Origin: Chloroflexota bacterium
GTDB taxonomy: Bacteria; Chloroflexota; Limnocylindria; Limnocylindrales; CSP1-4
NCBI GenBank assembly: GCA_003141245.1
Contig: PLLE01000046.1
Span: forward strand, 62,841 to 126,840
Direction: 5' to 3'
Length of the DNA stretch: 64,000 nt
Shown: piece after piece, positions 31,564 through 41,820 of the stretch
Layout: each line of letters opens with the position of its first letter
Numbering within the stretch: the first letter of the stretch is position 1
Notes under the pieces: generated by a model
Seen by the model: only the letters and a program-made list of their open reading frames with translations
Told to the model about the DNA's origin: nothing
Database searches by the model: none
Program-made: the position numbers and the translations under genes

Positions 31564-31690
31564 TCGGCGGATGGTAGCGGAGTGGCCGTGCGGCGGGGGA
31601 GGTCCCGGGCGGGGATCAGCGTTGGGGTCATAGCCTTGCGTCGCGACCGCCGGGCGAGCGGGCGGCGGCAAGAGCCTGCCGGATGAGGTC

Positions 31691-31717
31691 GGAGGTTCTA
31701 GTCCTCTCGCCCCACCA
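31691..31717 (+). other. tRNA 3'-end-like fragment (T-arm plus acceptor strand plus CCA) with no 5' partner
   Basis: GGAGG-TTCTAGT-CCTCT stem-loop followed by CGCCCCACCA. No matching acceptor or D/anticodon arms within 80 nt upstream. Confidence 0.3.
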
Positions 31718-33511: not shown

Positions 33512-33851
33512 ACTCTCGCCCCGACCACTTACAGGTGAACTGAACTCCGCCGGGAGCACCGCCGCGAAGCCATGGCGGACCGCGTGCTCACTGAGATACG
33601 CCGTGGCCTCGCGCACCCGTCGCGCGGAAGAGCAAACGATGCAGGCCCTCGGGTGGACTAGATGCGCCCATCGCAGGACGATACCTCCCCCGGGTGCCGG
33701 GTCGTGTCTGGCAGTCGGCCGCCACCCTCTCGGCAGCCGGCTGATCGCTCCGCGGCTCCCATCCTGCTGACTCGCGCGCTGCGGGTCGTCTACGATGGGC
33801 GCGGCTAGGCAGGCGGTCCGCCTGGCGCCGGGCAATCCGACGGAGAGACGG

Positions 33852-35498
33852 ATGAGCGGGGAACCGAACCTCCTCTACTACGGCGACAACCTCGACGTGC
33901 TGCGACGGCATGTCCGCGACGAGTCGGTCGATCTCGTCTACCTCGACCCGCCGTTCAACTCAAACGCGAATTACAACGTGCTGTTCGCCGAACATGGCAC
34001 ACGGGCGGCCGCGCAGATACAGGCGTTCGAGGACACGTGGGAGTGGAACGAGGAGTCAGCGGCGACATATCAGGAAACCGTCGAGCGCGGTGGCGAGGTC
34101 GCCAATGCGCTCTTGTCGTTCAGGACCCTGATCGGGACGTCGGACATGCTGGCGTACCTGTCGATGATGGCCCCGCGGCTTGTCGAGCTGCATCGCGTCC
34201 TCAAGCCGATCGGCTCGCTCTATCTGCACTGCGACCCGACCGCGAGCCACTATCTCAAGCTCCTGCTCGACGCGGTGTTCGGCCCGCAGAACTTCCGGAG
34301 CGAGATCATCTGGAAGCGGACTAGCGGACACAGCGACGCACGCGGCTACGGGGCGGTGCATGACGTGCTGCTCTACTACGTTGCGTCGGACGCCGCGACT
34401 TGGAACCGAATCTTCCAGGCTTACGATCCCGGTTATGTCGAGCAGTACTACCGCTATGCGGACCCCAATGGCCGCAAGTTCATGTCGGGCGACATCTCGG
34501 CGGCCGGGCTGTCCGGGGGCGGTTACGAGTACGAATGGCGCGGCGTTACGAGGGTTTGGCGTGTTCCGCTGACGAGCATGGAGAAGCTCGAAGGTGAGGG
34601 CCGGGTCTTCTACACGAAGAACGGCATTCCACGACTGAAGCGCTACCTCGATGAGTCCAAGGGACTCCCGGCCCAGGACGTCTGGGCCGACATCGAGCCG
34701 CTGCGATCTTGGCACGCCGAGAGGCTCGGATACCCGACACAGAAGCCGCTCGCGCTCGCCGAACGCCTCATCGAAGCGTCCTCTGGCCCTGGCGATGTCG
34801 TCTTGGACCCCTTCTGCGGCTGCGGCACGACTATCGACGCGGCGCAGGCCCTCGGGCGTCGCTGGATCGGAATCGACATCACGCACCTGTCCATCGGCCT
34901 CATCAAACACCGGCTGACTGATCGCTATGGCCCGGAGATCGCGAAGACATACAAGGTTGTCGGCGAACCTACGACGGCCGACGATGCAGCTGTCCTGGCG
35001 CGCGAGGACCCGTTCCAGTTCCAGGCGTGGGCGCTCGGCCTCGTGGGCGCGAGGGTGGCCGGGAGCGACAAGAAGGGCGGCGACAAGGGGATCGACGGCC
35101 GCCTCTACTTCCACGACTCGGCAGGCGGCCAGACCCGACAGATCGTGTTCTCCGTCAAGGCGGGCGAGCACCTCGTGCCGGCTTACGTGAACGAGCTACG
35201 CGGCGTGATCGAGCGCGAGCATGCCGACATCGGCGTGCTCATCACGTTCAAGGAACCAACGGCCGGCATGCGATCGGAGGCTGCCGGCGCGGGCTTCTAC
35301 ACCTCGCCATGGGGGAACCACCCACGGCTCCAACTCCGGACTGTCGGCCAATTGCTCACCGGCCAGGGCGTCGACTACCCGCACGTCACGGGCTCCAACG
35401 TGACGCACCGCCGCGCCGTTCCCGCCCGGCCAAACGCTCCCGAGACGATAGGTCTATTCGAGCGGGCCGCAGAGGAGCCGGAGGAGTACGGCTCCTAG
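33852..35498 (+). CDS. beta-class N6A/N4C DNA methyltransferase fused to a C-terminal Mrr-like (PD-(D/E)xK) nuclease domain
   Basis: Motif IV 'DLVYLDPPFNS' precedes motif I 'VLDPFCGCGTT'. C-terminus 'GGDKGIDGRLYF...IVFSVKAG'. ATG 33852 with a GGAGAGA RBS. Confidence 0.85.
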   Translation: MSGEPNLLYYGDNLDVLRRHVRDESVDLVYLDPPFNSNANYNVLFAEHGTRAAAQIQAFEDTWEWNEESAATYQETVERGGEVANALLSFRTLIGTSDMLAYLSMMAPRLVELHRVLKPIGSLYLHCDPTASHYLKLLLDAVFGPQNFRSEIIWKRTSGHSDARGYGAVHDVLLYYVASDAATWNRIFQAYDPGYVEQYYRYADPNGRKFMSGDISAAGLSGGGYEYEWRGVTRVWRVPLTSMEKLEGEGRVFYTKNGIPRLKRYLDESKGLPAQDVWADIEPLRSWHAERLGYPTQKPLALAERLIEASSGPGDVVLDPFCGCGTTIDAAQALGRRWIGIDITHLSIGLIKHRLTDRYGPEIAKTYKVVGEPTTADDAAVLAREDPFQFQAWALGLVGARVAGSDKKGGDKGIDGRLYFHDSAGGQTRQIVFSVKAGEHLVPAYVNELRGVIEREHADIGVLITFKEPTAGMRSEAAGAGFYTSPWGNHPRLQLRTVGQLLTGQGVDYPHVTGSNVTHRRAVPARPNAPETIGLFERAAEEPEEYGS

Positions 35499-35593
35499 CT
35501 CCTCATCTTGCGGGCCGGAGCTGAGAGGTAGACAATTAGAACGGGCGTTTTCTAGTCTCGGTCACGGGCACGACGCGGGCAGAGGTGATCACC

Positions 35594-35836
35594 ATGACAA
35601 TTCGGTGGAACGGTCGCAACAAGGAGGACGCCTTCAACAAGGCCGCCCTTCCTCAACTGCGGGACAACATGGCGAAGCTGCTCCGCGAGACCAGTTGCCC
35701 AGAGCACGGCACACACCCAACGTCGGTGACAGTCACCGGACGCGACCTTAGGTCGCTGGAGCTGCATGCTGAGGGAGTGTGCTGCCCGAAGCTCACCGAA
35801 GCGATGCGCCAGAAGATCGGCACGTCCTCCCGCTAG
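35594..35836 (+). CDS. hypothetical small Cys/His-containing protein
   Basis: 80 aa starting at ATG 35594 (the track uses GTG 35585). 'SCPEHGTHP...GVCCPKL'. No recognisable family. Confidence 0.4.
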   Translation: MTIRWNGRNKEDAFNKAALPQLRDNMAKLLRETSCPEHGTHPTSVTVTGRDLRSLELHAEGVCCPKLTEAMRQKIGTSSR

Positions 35837-36035: not shown

Positions 36036-36392
36036 GTGTGGTGCCGCTCAATCTGCACCTTCCTGGCGGGACGGGGAATACCCGACGCAACCTATGATCG
36101 CGCGGCCAAGCTCGTTGGCGTGTACCTGAAGGCGATCGTGATCATGGGCGGTGATTGCGACTCTCCCCTTGGGCGCAATGCTCATCCCCCAATCGACCGA
36201 GTTCTACTCCATCGCCTTGCGGCCTCTCGCAGGATCGCATCACCCCACAGAGGGTCGTGGGCATCGATCAGCTGGACGCAGCCGGACGAGCTTGGGTACT
36301 TCCAGCTGATCGGCCAACTCCGAACTGTGTTACCCGAGGGTGCGCCCTTCTGGACCCTTGAGGAGTACTGGGAACCGTCCGAATCCAGTTAG
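36036..36392 (+). pseudogene. probable 5'-truncated gene of unknown function
   Basis: The frame is open back to 35874, through repeat copy 2, with no ATG. The protein-like part is 'DRAAKLVGVYLKAIV...HPPIDRVLLHRL...FWTLEEYW'. Confidence 0.4.
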
Positions 36393-36538: not shown

Positions 36539-38017
36539 CTACTCCCAGCCGGCGGTGCCAATCTGGTAGAGGTCCGGCGGACAGCGCAATTCGCGGTATG
36601 TTCCCTTCGTCGATGCAATGAGGGCGTACCCAGGGACATGGAAGGCGAGGCCCTTGGGATCGAGCTCGCTCGACGTGGAATCGAACACGGCCTCTCCGAG
36701 CACGCAGTCGGTCCGTCCAGCGTCTCGTGCGCGTCGATCAACCGCTTCTACGACCCAAACGAAGCGAGGGAACCTGGCCATCCTGTATTCGCGAGCGACC
36801 GCGTTGGGCATCCGTCGCATCGCCTCGTCTTTGAAATGGTTAGCGGAGGTCGCGTAGGTACGAAAGGCGAGAGCACCCGCGGAGATGCAGTCACTAAGGG
36901 CTTTGGCATCTGGAACCGCCGCTTGCACCATCGAGGCAATCTGCTGCAGGAACGTGGCGCCCACGCCTTCCGCGGGTTCGGGCGGCAGCCAGAGCTTCTC
37001 GGGCAGCGGGACGACCAGGGCCGTCCAGGGCGAGTACCGGTAACCGTTGACCCCCACGTCGTTGAAGACTGACTTCACGGGTTGATATGGACCGAGTTGA
37101 TCGTCCTGCCGAACAAACTCGATCCACGAGCCGCCGCTTGGGTTTGGCGTGCGCCGGTAACCGACGAGCACAAAGGCGTGTTCGCCGTTCCCCACGAGGA
37201 CTGGGATTCCAGAATTCAGATACCTACAGATCGTACCGAAGAGCTTTGTGTTCCACAGTCCACCATGGAGCTGCTTCCCGTTGGCATCCACCACGGGGAT
37301 CGGGTCCGGCGGTGCACAAGGAGGCGTGGGTTCGACGGTCTTGAGTGCGTCGACGTCGTATAGGCGAGCCGGCAAGTCGAAGACTCGGAATAGTTCAACC
37401 AGCTGTCCAACGGTCAGCCCTTCGGAGGGCACTGGACGCGTGGGGCTCATCGAGGGGTTCGACATGAGATTGAAGGCAGCGATCGGCCGTCTCGGGACGA
37501 TGCCCCTCCTGTGAGCCACGTAGTGGCAGACCCAGGCGGCAGCGTGGGCGCATCGGTCCAGTTGGGCGTCCTGCTCCATAAACGGGACGGCTCGGATCGA
37601 GATTGTCTGGCCGAAGAAGTGGACGTTCTCTTGAATCGTAGTCAGAACGGCATCGTCAAGACCTGGAGGCGGTGCCAGCATGGTTCTGCCCACTCGACCG
37701 AGCTGCGTTGGCGGCCGAACCACCATGTACCCGAGGTAACCTGCGTCGACGGGGATCTCCCACAGCCGATCAGGCGAGATCGGGCCTTTGAAGAAGTGGA
37801 GTCGATGGGCCGTGTCGTAATGCGTGGAAAACGCCCGAGCGTGGAACGCGACGTACTCGCTCCGGAAGTCCGGGTCGATATATCTCGTCTCGATGACGAC
37901 TGTGAGCGCCCCGGCAGCCTTGGCAACGTCTAGACAATGCTTTAGAGGGTCGGGATTCCGGGCAGGGTACTGGCCTAGAAGCCACGTCCAGTCTCTTGGA
38001 TGTGCCAGGATGCGCAC
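36539..38017 (-). CDS. predicted papain-like (C39-like) cysteine peptidase with unknown N- and C-terminal domains
   Basis: 'QDAQLDRCAHAAAWVCHY' (Q..C), 'GNGEHAFVLVGY' (His) and 'FVRQDDQLGPY' (Asp) occur in papain-fold order. No HExxH. The track start at 38119 adds an Arg/Pro-rich head that overlaps a better small ORF. Confidence 0.5.
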   Translation of the reverse strand: MRILAHPRDWTWLLGQYPARNPDPLKHCLDVAKAAGALTVVIETRYIDPDFRSEYVAFHARAFSTHYDTAHRLHFFKGPISPDRLWEIPVDAGYLGYMVVRPPTQLGRVGRTMLAPPPGLDDAVLTTIQENVHFFGQTISIRAVPFMEQDAQLDRCAHAAAWVCHYVAHRRGIVPRRPIAAFNLMSNPSMSPTRPVPSEGLTVGQLVELFRVFDLPARLYDVDALKTVEPTPPCAPPDPIPVVDANGKQLHGGLWNTKLFGTICRYLNSGIPVLVGNGEHAFVLVGYRRTPNPSGGSWIEFVRQDDQLGPYQPVKSVFNDVGVNGYRYSPWTALVVPLPEKLWLPPEPAEGVGATFLQQIASMVQAAVPDAKALSDCISAGALAFRTYATSANHFKDEAMRRMPNAVAREYRMARFPRFVWVVEAVDRRARDAGRTDCVLGEAVFDSTSSELDPKGLAFHVPGYALIASTKGTYRELRCPPDLYQIGTAGWE

Positions 38018-38057
38018 CTTCGCGGGATCGGGATCCTCCCACGCCCCCCGCCGCACG

Positions 38058-38249
38058 TCAGCCCAGCCGCAATGTCGAGGCGTCGGCCTCGGCCTTGCGG
38101 CGCGCACGGGCCTGCTCATCGAGCTTCTTCTCGATGGCGCGCCTTTGCTCCCTATCGAACAGATCCATGGGGTCTCGGAGTCCGCCGAGCTTGGATCCTT
38201 GGATGGGGGTCAACTCAGGCAGCACGGAGCGGGGCTGCGGCCGAGCCAT
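38058..38249 (-). CDS. small charged helical protein, unknown function
   Basis: 63 aa. ATG 38249 is preceded by AGAGGAGAGA with 5 nt spacing. 'DPMDLFDREQRRAIEKKLDEQARARRKAEADA'. Confidence 0.45.
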   Translation of the reverse strand: MARPQPRSVLPELTPIQGSKLGGLRDPMDLFDREQRRAIEKKLDEQARARRKAEADASTLRLG

Positions 38250-38293: not shown

Positions 38294-38686
38294 CTATTCT
38301 GAGCCCCCGTCAAGCGACTCGCTCGCCAGGATCGCGTCATAGATGAAGCGCCATCGTTGCGCGCTCACGGGCGCCTTGCCCGCAACCCGAAGCCCGGCGA
38401 GCACCTGGACCTCGGAGGTGGGTATCCGTCGTTCCTCGGCCACGCGCCGCAGGCCATCTGGGATGTCGGCTGGCATGGACGAGCCCTGGAGCAGGGGCCC
38501 AAGCACGTCCTCAAGGCGTTGCAGGGCGTCGGCCCCGGGCCGACGGGTCCGGCCATGCTCTATTGCGTTGATATAGGCCCTGGAGAGCCCGGTTCGGCGC
38601 GAGACCTCAGCCAGGCTCCATGACTTGCGCGAGCGGGCGTCGACTATGCGTCTGCCGAGTTTCGAGCCCGCCTCATCTGTCAGCAA
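38294..38686 (-). CDS. XRE-family HTH transcriptional regulator
   Basis: 'RKSWSLAEVSRRTGLSRAYINAIEHGR' is an HTH_3 motif. The upstream 65 aa of the track ORF overlap the Ubl gene on the opposite strand. I use TTG 38686 (GGAG 9 nt upstream). Start is uncertain. Confidence 0.75.
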   Translation of the reverse strand: MLTDEAGSKLGRRIVDARSRKSWSLAEVSRRTGLSRAYINAIEHGRTRRPGADALQRLEDVLGPLLQGSSMPADIPDGLRRVAEERRIPTSEVQVLAGLRVAGKAPVSAQRWRFIYDAILASESLDGGSE

Positions 38687-38689
38687 CTG

Positions 38690-38718
38690 TTGACACTCCA
38701 GTCCGCTATTGCTACGAT
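38690..38718 (+). promoter_or_regulatory. sigma-70-like promoter for the Ubl operon
   Basis: TTGACA (38690-38695), a 17-nt spacer, then TACGAT (38713-38718), about 50 nt upstream of ATG 38768. Confidence 0.5.
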
Positions 38719-38732
38719 GTCTGCAATCGTAG
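38712..38732. promoter_or_regulatory. candidate operator: perfect 7-bp inverted repeat overlapping the -10 box
   Basis: CTACGAT-gtctgca-ATCGTAG. The palindrome AGACGTCT follows at 38737-38744. Confidence 0.4.
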
Positions 38733-38767
38733 ACAAAGACGTCTGTTTTGGCAATAGGAGAACGGAA

Positions 38768-39043
38768 ATGGCCCACAAGCTGAACCTGAGCATCAGGGCG
38801 ACGAACGGAGCCCAGTGGGAGACCGACGAGTTCGGGCTCAACCAGCGGGTCGATCATGTTCGTAAAGCAGCCGAGAAGCATTTCGAGCAGGCGGGAGAGA
38901 TGTCGCCCGGCGACTACCTCCTCGGCCTTGTGGTCGATGGCACGATCCAGGACCTGATCGACTCGGAGAAACTTGAGGACGCAGGCATCAAGGACGGTTC
39001 CGTGCTTGTGCTCAAGCCCCGCGGCGGCCAGGTGGACGGCTAG
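38768..39043 (+). CDS. ubiquitin-like (beta-grasp) protein with C-terminal RGG-QVDG
   Basis: 91 aa with an AGGAGA RBS. 'DLIDSEKLEDAGIKDGSVLVLKPRGGQVDG' parallels the ubiquitin C-terminus (..LVLRLRGG). First gene of the E2/JAB/E1 operon. Confidence 0.75.
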   Translation: MAHKLNLSIRATNGAQWETDEFGLNQRVDHVRKAAEKHFEQAGEMSPGDYLLGLVVDGTIQDLIDSEKLEDAGIKDGSVLVLKPRGGQVDG

Positions 39044-39469
39044 ATGAAGCCCGAGCTAGCCGAGGAACTTCTCGATGGAGAGCTTGAAGTAGTCCGGGAC
39101 TCCATCAGCTCCCGCGGGGTGACGGTCTGGCGCGAGGGTACGGACGTGTTCGTGCAATTCGAACACGGTCGGGATGGGAATCCCGGGGTATTCAGACTCG
39201 CCTGTGGACAGTTCGACGCCGAGTCGCCCTCGGTGTCGATGGTCGACCCCACAGCGCACACCGAGCTGTCGATGGAGCAGTGGACGCCGGGCGTGCCGCA
39301 CAGCGTCCATCCCCTCACGGGCAAGCCGTTTGTGTGCCTGCAAGGGACCGCCGAATATCACACGCATCCCTCGCACCTCGCTGACAGTTGGGACCGCTAC
39401 CGTCGCGTCTTCCGGCTAAAGGAGACGGTCCACCGGCTTCTCCAGAAAGCGGGGGTTGCTGACGTATGA
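39044..39469 (+). CDS. UBC-like E2 ubiquitin-conjugating-enzyme homologue
   Basis: 'VHPLTGKPFVCLQG' mirrors the eukaryotic HPN...G.(I/V)CL catalytic-Cys motif. The start immediately follows the Ubl stop (TAGATG). Confidence 0.7.
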   Translation: MKPELAEELLDGELEVVRDSISSRGVTVWREGTDVFVQFEHGRDGNPGVFRLACGQFDAESPSVSMVDPTAHTELSMEQWTPGVPHSVHPLTGKPFVCLQGTAEYHTHPSHLADSWDRYRRVFRLKETVHRLLQKAGVADV

Positions 39470-39927
39470 TCCTCCACCTTTCCCGAAAGGCACTCGAGGA
39501 GGCCCGGCTCTTCTTCGAAGAGGCCGGTTCGCGCGGCTGCGAGGGAACTGGGATGCTGGCCGGAGTTCGCCTCGTCGACGGATGGCGCGCGGAGCGATTT
39601 CTGGCGCCCGAGCAGAGGGCGTCCGCGGGACCAGGCGTTTGGGTGGAGGTCGCAGATCGCGGCAAGGCCCAGATCGCGACGGCCCTCGGGCCAGGCGAGC
39701 TCTGGATCGCGCGGATCCACTCCCACCCGGGCGCGGCATTCCACAGTGCGACCGACGACAGCAATCCAGTCATCACCGCTGAGGGATCGTGGTCGATAGT
39801 CGTTCCCTACTTCGGGCTGGGCCTTCGGCGCGGGGCGGCTGCCTGCGCCTTCTTCATCAGGCAGGGTGGCAGGTGGCGCCAGGTCGCCCCAGATGATGTC
39901 GAGAGGTGTGTCCGTGTCGGAGCGTGA
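39466..39927 (+). CDS. JAB/MPN (JAMM) metallopeptidase
   Basis: Glu in 'GCEGTGML' and 'IHSHPGAAFHSATD' (HxH...S..D). ATGA overlap with E2. Confidence 0.85.
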   Translation: MILHLSRKALEEARLFFEEAGSRGCEGTGMLAGVRLVDGWRAERFLAPEQRASAGPGVWVEVADRGKAQIATALGPGELWIARIHSHPGAAFHSATDDSNPVITAEGSWSIVVPYFGLGLRRGAAACAFFIRQGGRWRQVAPDDVERCVRVGA

Positions 39928-41407
39928 CCTCGACCCTCGGACCGGACTCGTCCCAGGCCCCGGCGCGGCCGCACTGCTGCGCCGACTGGACTCGACCCGA
40001 GTACTGATTCGGACCACGGCCGACAGTGGCGCCCTGGCGCTGTCGCTCGCAAACCATCTGGTGCGCATATGCCCGAGCGTCGCTGTCGATGCTCCGCCAA
40101 TCGGCGTGAACCTGCCAGTCTTCGGTATGGGGACGCTGCCCGAGCTGGCGGCCCGTCTTCTAAACCAAGCACGGATCGGGCGAGCTGAGGGAGCGGAAGG
40201 CCCGGCGAACCTTGTCATCGGCGTCGGTGACGTCACCGCAGGAGCAGACCTCTACGTCTCCGCCAACGGGTGGTCGCTGCGGCTTAGCGTCGATCCCCAC
40301 GAACCCTTGGCCGGCAGAGGCCCGGCCGTCTCGGCAGCTGCGGCCCTCGCGGCGGCCGAGGTATTCAGGCGACTGCTGCCCGAACTGCCCGGGGTCCGGC
40401 TGGCTCGCGATTTCGAGTGGAACCTCTGCGATTACCGGACGCGCGTTTCGGAGGCCTTTCCGCCCGCAGCGCCAGTGGACGCCGTGTGCTTCGGCGCGGG
40501 ATCCGTGGGCTCCTCTCTTGTCCTTGCACTGCTGCTAAGCAGGGCTATGGGGGATCTGGTGGTCGTTGATGACGACCGGCTTGAGTCTCGCAACCGACTC
40601 AAGTACCCCGCCTGGATCGGAGAACCGGGCGTGCGCGCAAAGGTCGACTGGCTCCAGGGCCTGGCCCTAGGAACTTCCCTTCGGGTGACCCCTTACCACG
40701 GAAGCTGCGCCGATTGGCAGGAATCGGGCCCATCCGCCCCGGCGATGGCAGTCGCAGCGGTAGACACCAGGGAGGGCCGGAGGCAAGTAGCCGACGTCCT
40801 CGCCAGGGAGACCCTCAACGCTGGCATCGAGGGACTGGCGATGCACGTGAGCCGGAATCGCTTCGGGGACGGGCTGGCATGTGTGTATTGCCCTTACGTC
40901 GACACGTCCGACAGGGCCTCTGAGACCGATGTCCTCCGCGAACTCACCGGGCTGGATTCCGCCAGACTGCTGGAACTCCTCGGCGGGTCCAAACTCACGG
41001 CTGAGGACGTGAATCGGATGGTCGCCGGCGGCAGGCTATCGGAGGCCGACTTCGATCTCGTAGGCGGGCGCATTGGCGATGTGGCCAGGGCAAGGTTGTA
41101 CGCCGGCGCAAGAGTCAAGACAGGAAGCGGGATCGCCGAGGTGAATGCCCCGTTCGTCCCAGCGTTGGCTGGCGCCATCCTCGCCGCCGAGATGCTCAAA
41201 GCGCCTGGCTCCGCAGCGGTTCTCGATCGACGGGTGGACGTTGACTGCTCAGGGCTTCCGACCGGCTGGACGAGCAGGCCAGTTGCCGACCCGTCTGGGC
41301 GCTGCCTCTGTCACAGCCAGGTCCGGCGTCGCGCGTACCTCAGAGCCTGGCCCAAGGAGTATCCGCCGGCCGGAGTCGCCGAGCCTAAAGGAAACATGAA
41401 GCGATGA
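39914..41407 (+). CDS. ThiF/MoeB-type E1-like adenylating enzyme with N-terminal extra domain
   Basis: 'VCFGAGSVGSSLVLALLL...LVVVDDDRLESRNRLKY' is a Rossmann fold plus the Arg finger region. CxxC in 'ACVYCPY' and 'RCLCH'. GTG 39914 follows GAGAGG. ATG 39893/39896 are alternatives. Confidence 0.85.
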   Translation: MSERDLDPRTGLVPGPGAAALLRRLDSTRVLIRTTADSGALALSLANHLVRICPSVAVDAPPIGVNLPVFGMGTLPELAARLLNQARIGRAEGAEGPANLVIGVGDVTAGADLYVSANGWSLRLSVDPHEPLAGRGPAVSAAAALAAAEVFRRLLPELPGVRLARDFEWNLCDYRTRVSEAFPPAAPVDAVCFGAGSVGSSLVLALLLSRAMGDLVVVDDDRLESRNRLKYPAWIGEPGVRAKVDWLQGLALGTSLRVTPYHGSCADWQESGPSAPAMAVAAVDTREGRRQVADVLARETLNAGIEGLAMHVSRNRFGDGLACVYCPYVDTSDRASETDVLRELTGLDSARLLELLGGSKLTAEDVNRMVAGGRLSEADFDLVGGRIGDVARARLYAGARVKTGSGIAEVNAPFVPALAGAILAAEMLKAPGSAAVLDRRVDVDCSGLPTGWTSRPVADPSGRCLCHSQVRRRAYLRAWPKEYPPAGVAEPKGNMKR

Positions 41408-41820
41408 GCACCTCGTCCGCGCCCGAGCGCGAGTTGGCTGACTTCCTTGCCACGTGGACACGTCGTCGCCCTGGATGGCAGTTCGTCGGTACGGGCGGAA
41501 ACCGGAGGTTGCGTTCCGCCGAAGCGCTAGCCCGCGACCTCCTCGATGACGCGGAATTCGCGGAGTTCAGAGTCGCGGAATGGCTACGCACCCCAGAGGG
41601 GAGAATCGTCGAAGCAGCCGTCTCCCAGGTCCTACCATGGCCCGGGTCGGCGGAGTTTCAGCTCCTGGTCGAGGCGATATCCCTCGCGGCGAAGGCGAAG
41701 GCGAAGGCGAAGGCGAAGCAGAGGCAGCACATACGATTTGCGCTGCGGTTGCCCCTGCCTTGGACCATGTCGGTCTGGTGGCGTGGCTTTCCGGTCCAAC
41801 TTGCCTGCGGTGAGAGTTAG
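41404..41820 (+). CDS. hypothetical protein translationally coupled to E1
   Basis: 138 aa with an ATGA overlap to E1 and an AAGGA RBS. It contains the (AK)5 repeat 'AAKAKAKAKAKQ'. No family recognised. Confidence 0.5.
   Translation: MSTSSAPERELADFLATWTRRRPGWQFVGTGGNRRLRSAEALARDLLDDAEFAEFRVAEWLRTPEGRIVEAAVSQVLPWPGSAEFQLLVEAISLAAKAKAKAKAKQRQHIRFALRLPLPWTMSVWWRGFPVQLACGES

What the first reader, a model, noticed from the sequence alone, without database searches (positions are those of the whole stretch)
38768..41407. Ubiquitin-like conjugation operon: Ubl - E2 - JAB - E1 (Bil-type architecture)
Four consecutive, translationally coupled genes (junctions TAGATG and ATGA, plus a 14-nt overlap) make up the operon. 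They encode a 91-aa beta-grasp protein with a ubiquitin-like C-terminus, a UBC-like E2 ('HPLTGKPFVCLQG'), a JAMM peptidase (E...HSHP...S..D), and a ThiF-type E1 with an extra N-terminal domain and CxxC pairs. This gene set and order correspond to the bacterial Ubl/E2/JAB/E1 operons predicted by comparative genomics and recently shown, as Bil systems, to act in antiphage defence by conjugating the Ubl to phage proteins. No CD-NTase is present, so it is not a type II CBASS.
Basis: partly seen in the sequence, partly recalled or inferred. Interest (0 to 1): 0.9.

Follow-up and report, generated by a model that had tools for sequence, protein, structure and literature searches.

The report
Bil-like ubiquitination operon with tyrosine E1
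This is a real bacterial ubiquitin-like tagging operon (tag, E2, JAB peptidase, E1) related to the known Bil defence systems, but its E1 carries an invariant tyrosine where known Bil E1s have the catalytic cysteine, and it comes with a previously unannotated protease-like partner gene.

Summary
Four translationally coupled genes at 38768-41407 (+) encode a 91-aa beta-grasp Ubl ending in Gly, a 141-aa E2, a 153-aa JAMM peptidase and a 497-aa E1.

In the PDB, the best hits for the E1, E2 and JAB are the Ensifer aridi Type II BilABCD proteins (for the E2, the only significant one). The E2 carries the exact CEHH motif. The gene order is conserved in 14 genome loci from Actinomycetota and Chloroflexota, so the "Bil-type" reading holds. 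The closest relative is Type II (CEHH/6C) Bil, not the phage-tested Type I.

- **E1 catalytic residue.** The position aligned to the E1 catalytic Cys (E. aridi C417) is an invariant Tyr (Y396) in 65/65 homologues and in 102 of 121 aligned full-length E1s from the best 150 representatives. The only invariant cysteines in the E1 are the four Zn ligands. Cys-type E1s form a single separate clade. A catalytic E1 tyrosine is known only from Bub pathways. Here it is paired with a Cys E2, which suggests a mixed oxyester-to-thioester relay. That relay is inferred, not shown.
- **Divergent arm.** An arm of HTH (CapH-like), a 63-aa ORF and a ~505-aa orphan protein with a weak UfSP/ZUFSP-like papain fold is conserved. 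The last two genes recur beside Bub and other Ubl operons across phyla.

Caveat: this copy has Lys230 where 64/65 relatives have the adenylation Arg. Antiphage function is untested.

The parts
38768..39043 (+). Ubl (BilA-like), 91 aa, single beta-grasp, invariant C-terminus QVDG* ending in the reactive Gly91 with no tail
   Evidence: 13 homologues plus locus copies all end in QVDG (L002/L003 carry an extra CDARI tail). AF2 pLDDT 85, beta-beta-alpha-beta-beta-beta topology; Foldseek hits to ubiquitin, NEDD8 and ISG15 at E 2e-5 to 4e-4.
39044..39469 (+). E2 (BilB-like, CEHH type), 141 aa. Cys98 (39335-39337), Glu104, His106 and His111 have the same spacing as E. aridi BilB C138/E144/H146/H151.
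   Evidence: Pfam Metal_CEHH 27.6 bits against a cut-off of 25; the only significant PDB hit is E2(BilB) 8tyz_C (profile E 6.6e-8). C98, H111, W116, D117 and R120 are invariant in 15 sequences. One search gives the motif definition.
39466..39927 (+). JAB/JAMM peptidase (BilC-like), 153 aa; E26, H85, H87, S94, D97
   Evidence: 8tyx_B DUB(BilC), E 1.1e-10. PADLOC BilC 3.5e-9; the motif is invariant across loci.
39914..41407 (+). E1 (BilD-like), 497 aa: N-terminal inactive adenylation domain (R9), active adenylation domain (GAGSVGSS 194-201, D219, K230), ~86-aa helical insertion carrying invariant Tyr396 (41099-41101), and Zn site C323/C326/C464/C466
   Evidence: 8tyz_A E1(BilD), E 5.8e-45 across residues 18-481. 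Y396 is invariant and there is no conserved Cys in the insertion; relatives carry Pfam BilD_N plus ThiF.
38687..38767 (.). 81-nt divergent control region. Plus-strand promoter-like site TTGACA-17-TACGAT (38690-38718) and minus-strand TTGCCA-17-TACGAT (38754-38726). The two -10 boxes form a 7-bp inverted repeat, CTACGAT-N7-ATCGTAG, which is a candidate HTH operator.
   Evidence: 2 sites found against 0.3 expected; the TGTTGACA and GTAGAC boxes recur in the same intergenic region of L001, L002 and L004. The operator role is inferred.
38294..38686 (-). HTH (XRE/CapH-like) regulator, 130 aa from TTG 38686. The longer 195-aa ORF would overlap the Ubl gene.
   Evidence: HTH_31 and HTH_3. PADLOC capH 1.1e-9; called as 130 aa; conserved divergently in L001-L004 and in metagenome loci.
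38058..38249 (-). Small conserved ORF, 63 aa, predicted charged helix, C-terminus ...LRL[G/S/A]*; function unknown
   Evidence: conserved between the HTH and the large protein in Bil-like loci, and found immediately upstream of the large protein in Bub-type and other loci.
36539..38119 (-). Orphan ~505-aa protein ('P526'; likely true start GTG 38056). The central domain has a weak papain-like (UfSP/ZUFSP/staphopain/C39) fold, with invariant Q183, C190, H314 and D339/D340.
   Evidence: more than 380 clusters, none with a Pfam domain. One search gives the invariants. AF2 pLDDT 88; the best folds are UfSP2, UfSP and ZUP1 at E 2e-3 to 2e-2; no Pfam or PDB sequence hit; recurrent linkage to Ubl operons.
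41404..41820 (+). ORF5, 138 aa, coupled to the E1 stop by ATGA and containing an AKAKAKAKAK repeat; membership doubtful
   Evidence: One search shows the junction. GC3 pattern consistent with coding; called by another pipeline; no homologue in any related locus; no family hit above threshold.

Best explanation
The locus is a complete E1-E2-Ubl-deubiquitinase conjugation system of the Bil lineage. It is closest to Type II/CEHH Bil and sits in a low-GC3 island next to a DNA methylase-Mrr fusion.

Proposed mechanism:
1. The divergent promoters are held by the CapH-like HTH (inferred).
2. The Ubl is made with its reactive Gly91 already exposed.
3. The E1 adenylation domain, completed by Arg9 from the inactive N-terminal domain, adenylates Gly91. 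This is inferred from conserved residues, but this copy has Lys230 in place of the conserved Arg.
4. The acyl group passes to Tyr396 on the mobile helical insertion as a tyrosyl oxyester. This step is inferred by analogy with Bub E1 Y370/Y342.
5. It then passes to E2 Cys98, assisted by His111, as a thioester.
6. It then passes to lysines of target proteins without an E3.
7. The JAMM peptidase reverses or edits conjugates, and processes tailed Ubls in relatives.

The biological role is most likely phage defence or a related stress response, by analogy with Type I Bil and from the island context. The small ORF plus papain-like protein is a conserved accessory pair of Ubl systems. It is most plausibly a Ubl-directed cysteine peptidase or effector with its partner, but its function is open.

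Sub-probabilities: Bil-lineage conjugation system about 0.9; Tyr396 as covalent intermediate about 0.5; antiphage role about 0.6.
For: - **Relationship to Type II Bil.** E1, E2 and JAB each have the E. aridi Type II Bil protein as their best PDB hit (the only significant one for the E2). The E2 passes Pfam Metal_CEHH with identical motif spacing.
- **Ubl.** It folds as a ubiquitin-like beta-grasp, and its terminal Gly is invariant.
- **Synteny.** Ubl-E2-JAB-E1 is conserved in 14 genome loci and in more distant Tyr-type loci.
- **Tyrosine.** Pairwise, profile and MAFFT alignments all place Y396 on E. aridi C417. Y is present in 65/65 homologues and in 102 of 121 aligned full-length E1s from the best 150 representatives. 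Independently of any alignment to E. aridi, the only invariant cysteines in the E1 family are the four Zn ligands. Cys-type E1s form one clade, with a single state change on a neighbour-joining tree.
- **Precedent.** Bub E1 Y370F and Y342F abolish conjugation.
- **E2 cysteine.** The E2 Cys is retained in every Tyr-type operon examined.
- **Island and defence context.** GC3 is 0.72-0.84 in the island against 0.89-0.90 in the flanks. The window has a methylase-Mrr neighbour. Relatives lie beside restriction-modification genes, integrases and CapH+CapP.
Against: - No biochemistry exists for any Tyr-type member, and no structure model of this E1 was made here. The Tyr/Cys equivalence rests on sequence alignment in a weakly conserved region.
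- PADLOC Bil models match only weakly (BilB 4e-4, BilC 3.5e-9, BilD 1.2e-7, BilA none), so standard defence finders may not call the system.
- Phage defence has been shown only for Type I Bil. The targets and roles of Type II Bil are stated to be unknown.
- This copy carries K230 where 64/65 relatives have Arg. The equivalent residue is E. aridi R246, and R246A abolishes conjugation.
- The fold match of the accessory protein is weak (E about 2e-3, TM 0.2-0.3).
Confidence: 0.72

Rival explanations
1. The E1 only adenylates the Ubl, as ThiF and MoeB do. E2 Cys98 attacks the Ubl-adenylate directly. Tyr396 is structural, or it positions the E2, and never carries the Ubl.
For: [quoted passage not shown] The E2 retains a normal Cys/His pair. 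In the E. aridi structure the mobile domain contacts the E2, so a docking role is conceivable.
Against: Absolute invariance of a single Tyr, exactly at the catalytic Cys position, is hard to explain by docking alone. It holds across sequences down to about 30% identity and in 102 of 121 aligned full-length E1s from the best 150 representatives. In Bub, Y to F abolishes product formation.
Confidence: 0.22
2. It is an ordinary Type I or Type II BilABCD system running the canonical all-thioester relay (E1 Cys to E2 Cys).
For: Gene order and fold assignments match Bil.
Against: The ~86-aa insertion has no Cys in the window protein or in most homologues. No Cys is invariant outside the Zn site. Characterised Bil E1s depend on C385 (Type I) or C417 (Type II). 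Cys-type E1s form a separate clade.
Confidence: 0.03
3. The window copy is enzymatically weakened or decaying, because the adenylation Arg is replaced by Lys230. The operon would then be a relic in this genome.
For: K230 against Arg in 64/65 relatives. R246A at the equivalent residue abolishes conjugation in E. aridi. The same Lys appears in an independent assembly, so it is not a sequencing error.
Against: All genes of the locus are intact and coupled, and every other catalytic residue is retained. Arg to Lys is conservative and keeps the positive charge. The GC3 pattern is that of coding sequence.
Confidence: 0.12
4. It is a sulfur-carrier or cofactor biosynthesis module (ThiS/MoaD with a ThiF/MoeB-type E1), not a protein-tagging system.
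For: The E1 has a weak ThiF Pfam hit, and the small protein is a beta-grasp ending in Gly.
Against: An E2 with catalytic Cys and a JAMM peptidase are present and conserved. The E1 is a pseudo-dimeric IAD-AAD enzyme like BilD and eukaryotic E1s. There is no rhodanese or sulfurtransferase partner among the called genes. The top fold matches of the Ubl are ubiquitin, NEDD8 and ISG15. The genes lie in a horizontally acquired island.
Confidence: 0.02

Closest known systems
Type II BilABCD (CEHH/6C operons; Ensifer aridi TW10; PDB 8TYZ, 8TZ0, 8TYX, 8TYY; Chambers et al., PMC10557695)
   Same: Gene order Ubl-E2-JAB-E1. E2 with the C/E/H/H motif at identical spacing. E1 with IAD (Arg9), AAD, an ~80-90-aa helical insertion in the crossover loop and a four-Cys Zn site. 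Single beta-grasp Ubl with a conserved Gly. JAMM peptidase. Association with a CapH-type HTH. No E3.
   Different: The E1 catalytic Cys417 is replaced by invariant Tyr396. The window E1 aligns only weakly with the E. aridi protein, although the family profile matches it at 5.8e-45. The Ubl ends at the reactive Gly, so it needs no processing. Hosts are Actinomycetota and Chloroflexota rather than mainly Rhizobiaceae. An extra small-ORF plus papain-like-protein arm is present. On a neighbour-joining tree the Cys-type E1s are a separate clade.
Type I BilABCD (Collimonas sp. OK412; Hor et al., 10.1101/2023.09.04.556158)
   Same: Same four genes in the same order. It is the only member of this kind with demonstrated phage defence (Ubl conjugated to the phage central tail fibre).
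   Different: The Type I Ubl has two beta-grasp domains. Its E1 uses Cys385. Glu and His of the CEHH motif are not conserved in the Type I E2. The PADLOC Bil models match the window proteins only weakly.
Bub pathways, Type I and II (6E/DUF6527 operons; Ye et al., PMC11601596)
   Same: The E1 has an invariant, functionally essential tyrosine in the crossover region instead of a cysteine. The operons are often regulated by CapH+CapP. The small-ORF plus P526-like pair also occurs beside Bub operons.
   Different: Bub E1s are homodimeric, lack an IAD and are fused to a JAB or an E2. The Bub E2 uses Ser (with His/Asp or Lys/His), so the whole relay is oxyester. Bub operons carry the BubE serine protease. 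Here the E2 keeps Cys/His and there is no BubE.
Type II CBASS Cap2/Cap3
   Same: Bacterial E1/E2 chemistry plus a JAB peptidase in a defence context.
   Different: Cap2 is an E2-E1 fusion that conjugates a CD-NTase, with no free Ubl. No CD-NTase or effector is found here, and E1-E2 PADLOC models match only marginally.
UfSP (peptidase C78) and ZUFSP/ZUP1 cysteine deubiquitinases; CapP (for the accessory protein)
   Same: Best fold matches of the central domain of the ~505-aa protein, which has an invariant Gln/Cys/His/Asp set. Like CapP, it lies downstream of an HTH that is divergent from an immune-type operon.
   Different: There is no sequence similarity to any Pfam or PDB entry, and the fold scores are weak. 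It is not a Zn metallopeptidase. In some loci it co-occurs with a genuine CapP/M78 gene, so it is not simply a CapP substitute.

Membership tests
Bil operons (Type I/II BilABCD) | Four genes in the order Ubl (BilA), E2 (BilB), JAB/JAMM peptidase (BilC), E1 (BilD) | tested here: met
   the order is conserved in the window and in 14 loci.
Bil operons (Type I/II BilABCD) | [quoted passage not shown] | tested here: met
   the profile aligns residues 18-481 with 8tyz_A residues 31-508, covering both domains. R9 is conserved in 64/65 sequences. Relatives hit Pfam BilD_N.
Bil operons (Type I/II BilABCD) | Mobile domain carrying the catalytic cysteine (C385 in Type I, C417 in Type II) | tested here: not met
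   the aligned residue is Tyr396, invariant. The insertion has no Cys in the window protein, and the family has no invariant Cys outside the Zn site.
Bil operons (Type I/II BilABCD) | Demonstrated Ubl-target isopeptide conjugation and phage defence | not testable with these tools
   This needs biochemistry and plaque assays. In the literature read here, defence was shown only for Type I.
Type II Bil (CEHH/6C) | E2 of the CEHH family: Cys, Glu(+6), His(+8), His(+13) | tested here: met
   C98/E104/H106/H111. Pfam Metal_CEHH is above the gathering score. Cys and the +13 His are invariant; Glu and the +8 His are lost in one Pseudonocardiales subclade.
Type II Bil (CEHH/6C) | E1 Zn site formed by CxxC in the crossover loop plus CxC near the C-terminus | tested here: met
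   C323, C326, C464 and C466 are invariant and align to E. aridi C340/C343/C491/C493.
Type II Bil (CEHH/6C) | Beta-grasp Ubl with a universally conserved Gly at or near the C-terminus | tested here: met
   AF2 and Foldseek. The terminal Gly of QVDG is invariant.
Bub pathways | E1 with an invariant catalytic Tyr in the crossover region | tested here: met
   Y396 is invariant. Its catalytic role is not tested.
Bub pathways | E2 with catalytic Ser; a DUF6527/BubE protease; E1 fused to a JAB or an E2, with no IAD | tested here: not met
   The E2 has Cys98. No BubE hit was found in the window proteins. The E1 is a stand-alone IAD-AAD protein.
Type II CBASS | CD-NTase plus Cap2 (E1-E2 fusion) plus Cap3 | tested here: not met
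   No CD-NTase was found among the tested neighbours and called genes. E1 and E2 are separate proteins.
CapH+CapP regulators | HTH repressor paired with an ImmA/IrrE (M78) Zn metallopeptidase | tested here: inconclusive
   The HTH hits PADLOC capH at 1.1e-9. The window has no M78 peptidase hit among the proteins scanned, whereas related loci L021, L028 and L107 have one.

The most novel reading that the evidence does not exclude
A large, so far undescribed branch of BilD-like E1 enzymes uses a tyrosine on the mobile domain to carry the Ubl, then hands it to a cysteine E2. That would be a mixed oxyester-to-thioester ubiquitination relay, intermediate between Bil and Bub chemistry. In addition, a sequence-orphan two-gene module (a ~60-aa protein plus a UfSP/ZUFSP-like cysteine peptidase) would be a shared, previously overlooked component of bacterial ubiquitination-like systems (Bil-like, Bub and JAB-E1 types) from Actinomycetota to Pseudomonas plasmids.
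Probability: 0.4. Interest if true: 0.8.

Novelty: new variant of a known kind. Interest (0 to 1): 0.62.

Why it matters
Bacterial Bil systems are the closest prokaryotic relatives of eukaryotic ubiquitination, and both characterised types run on E1 and E2 cysteine thioesters. A broad sister lineage keeps the eukaryote-like E1 architecture and a cysteine E2 but has swapped the E1 nucleophile for tyrosine. If it works as proposed, oxyester E1 chemistry is not a peculiarity of the diverged Bub pathway. It would also offer a natural system for asking how E1-to-E2 transfer tolerates a change of leaving group. This is directly testable with Y396F, Y396C and C98S variants. The recurrent small-ORF plus papain-like partner gives a concrete candidate for a missing component (a deconjugase, regulator or effector) of Type II Bil and Bub systems, whose targets and outputs are still unknown. 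In practice, standard defence-finder models match this lineage only weakly, so it is probably under-counted.

Tried and rejected
- NCBIfam gave no meaningful hit for any of the seven proteins.
- Sequence searches of the Ubl against the PDB, as a single sequence and as a profile, found nothing relevant. Only the fold comparison identified it.
- The ubiquitin-like 'RGG' was considered as the reactive end with QVDG as a propeptide. This was rejected because RGG is not conserved while QVDG* is invariant.
- ORF5 was considered as a fifth component. No homologue exists in any related locus, so it is left doubtful.
- The ~505-aa protein was considered as CapP, CapK or CapW. It was rejected for three reasons: it has no M78 or other Pfam hit; CapK is described as an HTH-STAS-GHKL kinase, whereas the fold matches here are papain-like; and genuine CapP co-occurs with it in some loci.
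- Pfam scans of 45 family members and a profile search of the PDB found nothing for that protein.
- The repeat finder did not report the 7-bp inverted repeat in the control region. The repeat is read directly from the 38687-38767 sequence printed and from the two -10 hexamers; an exact-repeat script on the same region also listed none.
- The ARAGORN tRNA-Ser at 31637-31716 was not supported by Rfam, so it was not used as an island boundary.
- Supplementary tables of the Type II Bil paper are not held. I could not check whether any Tyr-type operon is in the published list of 162.
- Literature searches for a tyrosine-type Bil E1 found only the Bub work.
- The plasmid collection holds no close relative of the E1.


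Full report
**1. The observation**

The four ORFs exist exactly as described. The Ubl runs from ATG 38768, with AGGAG upstream, to TAG 39043. ATG 39044 of the E2 follows directly. The E2 stop overlaps the JAB start (ATGA at 39466-39469). The E1 starts at GTG 39914, 14 nt before the JAB stop at 39927, and ends at 41407.

The same four products (91, 141, 153 and 497 aa) are present as called proteins in public collections. The region from about 34 to 42 kb has lower GC than its surroundings. Its genes have GC3 of 0.72-0.84, against 0.89-0.90 for the flanking glycogen-metabolism genes, so it looks horizontally acquired.

**2. What the four genes are**

- **E2.** It passes the Pfam gathering score for Metal_CEHH. 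That family was re-interpreted by Chambers et al. as the E2 of 'Type II BilABCD' (CEHH/6C) operons. The motif spacing C98/E104/H106/H111 is identical to E. aridi BilB C138/E144/H146/H151.
- **PDB matches.** The top hit is the E. aridi Type II Bil protein for E1 (8tyz_A: 4.8e-14 as a single sequence, 5.8e-45 as a family profile covering residues 18-481), for E2 (8tyz_C: the only hit for the family profile, 6.6e-8) and for JAB (8tyx_B: 1.1e-10).
- **PADLOC.** The Type I-derived BilB, BilC and BilD models match only weakly, and BilA does not match.
- **Ubl.** It has no sequence match. Its AF2 model (13-sequence alignment, pLDDT 85) has beta-grasp topology, and Foldseek returns ubiquitin variants, NEDD8 and the ISG15 C-terminal domain.
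- **Synteny.** In 14 genome loci the order Ubl-E2-JAB-E1 is conserved. These come from Acidimicrobiia, Saccharothrix, Actinosynnema, a Rhodococcus opacus plasmid, other Actinomycetota and Chloroflexia.
- **Conserved residues in those loci.** Conserved across those copies are the E2 Cys and the +13 His, the JAMM residues E/HxH/S/D, and the Ubl C-terminal QVDG. The 'RGG' that looked ubiquitin-like is not conserved. The reactive residue is the terminal Gly, and in most members, including this one, it is already exposed. L002 and L003 carry a CDARI tail that would need JAB processing, as described for E. aridi BilA.
- **E1 residues.** The IAD arginine (R9), GAGSVGSS, D219 and the Zn ligands C323/C326/C464/C466 are invariant or nearly so.

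**3. The unexpected feature: no E1 catalytic cysteine**

[quoted passage not shown] C385A in Type I and C417A in Type II abolish Ubl~E1 formation, conjugation or defence.

In the window E1 the ~86-residue insertion between the CxxC and the return to the adenylation domain contains no cysteine. Pairwise phmmer, profile-versus-PDB and MAFFT alignments all place Tyr396 (motif RLYAGA) on E. aridi Cys417 (AICGG).

Tyr396 is invariant in 65/65 full-length homologues down to 32% identity. No cysteine is conserved in the insertion (a single non-conserved Cys occurs in 7 of the 65). The only invariant cysteines in the family are the four Zn ligands. That last point does not depend on any alignment to E. 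aridi.

A profile search of 1.84 billion representatives gave 2629 hits. Of the best 150, 121 full-length sequences were aligned, counting added reference sequences (the E. aridi fragment, the window E1 and earlier family members): 102 have Tyr and 17 have Cys at this column. On a neighbour-joining tree built without that column, the 17 Cys-type sequences, including E. aridi BilD, form a single clade with one inferred state change.

More distant Tyr-type E1s sit in the same four-gene operons. They have a CEHH E2 that keeps its Cys, and in one case divergent CapH+CapP.

The only precedent I found for a tyrosine E1 is the Bub pathway. There, BubCD Y370F and BubBD Y342F abolish conjugation, but the E2 uses serine, and the E1 is a homodimer with no inactive adenylation domain, fused to a JAB or an E2. 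Searches of the held literature found no description of a tyrosine-type Bil E1. The supplementary operon lists could not be read.

**4. Mechanism**

- Shown by sequence and fold: a complete Ubl/E1/E2/JAMM set with all catalytic residues of the E2, the JAB and the adenylation site conserved in the family.
- Inferred: Gly91 is adenylated. The acyl group moves to Tyr396 as an aryl oxyester, by analogy with Bub. It then moves to Cys98 of the E2 and on to target lysines without an E3, as proposed for Bil. The JAB edits or recycles conjugates.
- Main rival: Tyr396 never carries the Ubl, and the E2 cysteine attacks the adenylate directly.
- Copy-specific caveat: residue 230 is Lys (AAG) where 64/65 relatives have Arg. 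This is the equivalent of E. aridi R246, whose alanine mutant is inactive. The same Lys is present in an independent assembly, so it is real.

**5. Surroundings**

An 81-nt control region lies between the Ubl gene and a divergent HTH gene. That gene encodes a 130-aa protein from TTG 38686 and hits PADLOC capH at 1.1e-9.

The control region holds two opposed promoter-like sites, where 0.3 would be expected by chance. Their -10 hexamers form the inverted repeat CTACGAT-N7-ATCGTAG. The sequence boxes recur in the related loci.

Downstream of the HTH lie a conserved 63-aa ORF (38058-38249) and a ~505-aa protein. The latter is annotated as 526 aa, but the conserved small ORF and the lengths of homologues favour a start at GTG 38056.

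The large protein belongs to a family of more than 380 clusters with no Pfam or PDB sequence match. Its AF2 model is confident (pLDDT 88). The central domain weakly resembles UfSP2/UfSP, ZUFSP/ZUP1, staphopain and C39 peptidases, with invariant Q183, C190, H314 and D339/D340.

This pair is not specific to Bil-like operons. The small ORF plus large protein also lies beside three other kinds of system:
- Type II Bub operons (Multi_ubiq, BubBD, BubE).
- Multi_ubiq / E2-like / JAB-E1-fusion operons that also have their own CapH+CapP.
- At 25-27% identity, Ubl operons on a Mesorhizobium plasmid and a Pseudomonas aeruginosa plasmid.

Of 22 metagenome loci with at least 4 kb upstream, 14 carry an E1-like gene. 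The pair is therefore a recurrent accessory of bacterial Ubl systems and is not a CapP substitute. Its function (Ubl-directed cysteine peptidase, effector or regulator) is open.

ORF5 (41404-41820) is coupled to the E1 stop and looks like coding sequence, but it has no homologue in any related locus.

**6. Comparison and verdict**

The locus works like, and descends from the same stock as, Type II Bil. It meets the tests for gene content, order, CEHH E2, IAD-AAD E1, Zn site and Ubl. It fails the one test that defines Bil E1 chemistry, the catalytic cysteine, and it shares that one trait with Bub while failing all other Bub criteria.

I therefore file it as a new variant of a known kind: a tyrosine-E1, cysteine-E2 branch of the Bil lineage.

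A defence role is plausible from several lines of context: the island composition; the methylase-Mrr neighbour; restriction-modification genes, integrases and CapH/CapP in related loci; and the Type I precedent. It is untested for this branch and even for Type II Bil.

Noticed in passing
window 36539-38249 (minus strand); also L019-L024, L029-L105, L106, L107: A two-gene pair, a ~55-65-aa ORF ending in ...LRL[G/S/A] plus a ~500-730-aa sequence-orphan protein with a weak UfSP/ZUFSP-like papain fold, recurs next to Bil-like, Type II Bub and JAB-E1-fusion Ubl operons. This includes plasmids of Mesorhizobium and Pseudomonas aeruginosa. An E1-like gene is present in 14 of 22 loci with enough flank.
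   Followed up: partly
window 40601-40603 (E1 codon 230, AAG): The window E1 has Lys where 64/65 homologues have Arg. This Arg corresponds to E. aridi BilD R246, whose Ala mutant is inactive. The same Lys is present in an independent assembly, and an 81%-identical relative has Arg.
   Followed up: partly
window 41404-41820 (+): ORF5 (138 aa) overlaps the E1 stop by ATGA, contains a (GCGAAG)5 = AKAKAKAKAK repeat and has a GC3 pattern consistent with coding. It has no homologue in any related locus and no family hit above threshold.
   Followed up: partly
window 33795-35498 (+): N6/N4 DNA methylase fused to a C-terminal Mrr-like / NA-iREase1 nuclease-fold domain (PADLOC MTase_II 6.6e-62), at the start of the same low-GC3 island. 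Two small unannotated ORFs follow it (35585-35836 and 36036-36392).
   Followed up: no
window 31637-31716 (+): ARAGORN calls a tRNA-Ser (anticodon AGA), but the Rfam gathering-threshold scan of the whole window finds no tRNA or any other RNA family. It is probably a false positive.
   Followed up: partly
L021 3057-5330 and L024 3018-5202 (minus strand): A different Ubl operon type: a Multi_ubiq Ubl ending ...RERAAVA, a 118-aa E2-like protein (PPHWVH motif) and a 520-aa JAB-E1 fusion without the BilD-type insertion. It is divergent from CapH, CapP (M78), the small ORF and a P526 homologue.
   Followed up: partly
L007, L009, L014, L016 (E2 genes, e.g. L007 5835-6248): In the Saccharothrix, Actinosynnema and Rhodococcus subclade the E2 has lost the Glu and the first His of the CEHH motif (GTRGYYMHQSH), while keeping Cys and the +13 His. 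This is the same pattern reported for the Type I Bil E2.
   Followed up: no
L002 and L003 5771-6064: The Ubl carries a five-residue tail (CDARI) after the invariant QVDG, unlike the window copy. These members would need JAB processing before activation.
   Followed up: no
L014 (Rhodococcus opacus plasmid pHG203, NZ_CP134710.1): A Tyr-type Ubl-E2-JAB-E1 operon is plasmid-borne in a cultured strain, which could serve as an experimental source.
   Followed up: no
window E1 residues 389-396 (about 41078-41101): D389 and R392 are nearly invariant and lie 7 and 4 residues before Tyr396 (DxxRxxxY), so they could lie on one face if the segment is helical. This may be a Tyr-activating network. It is conserved mainly in the nearer Tyr-type clades.
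   Followed up: no
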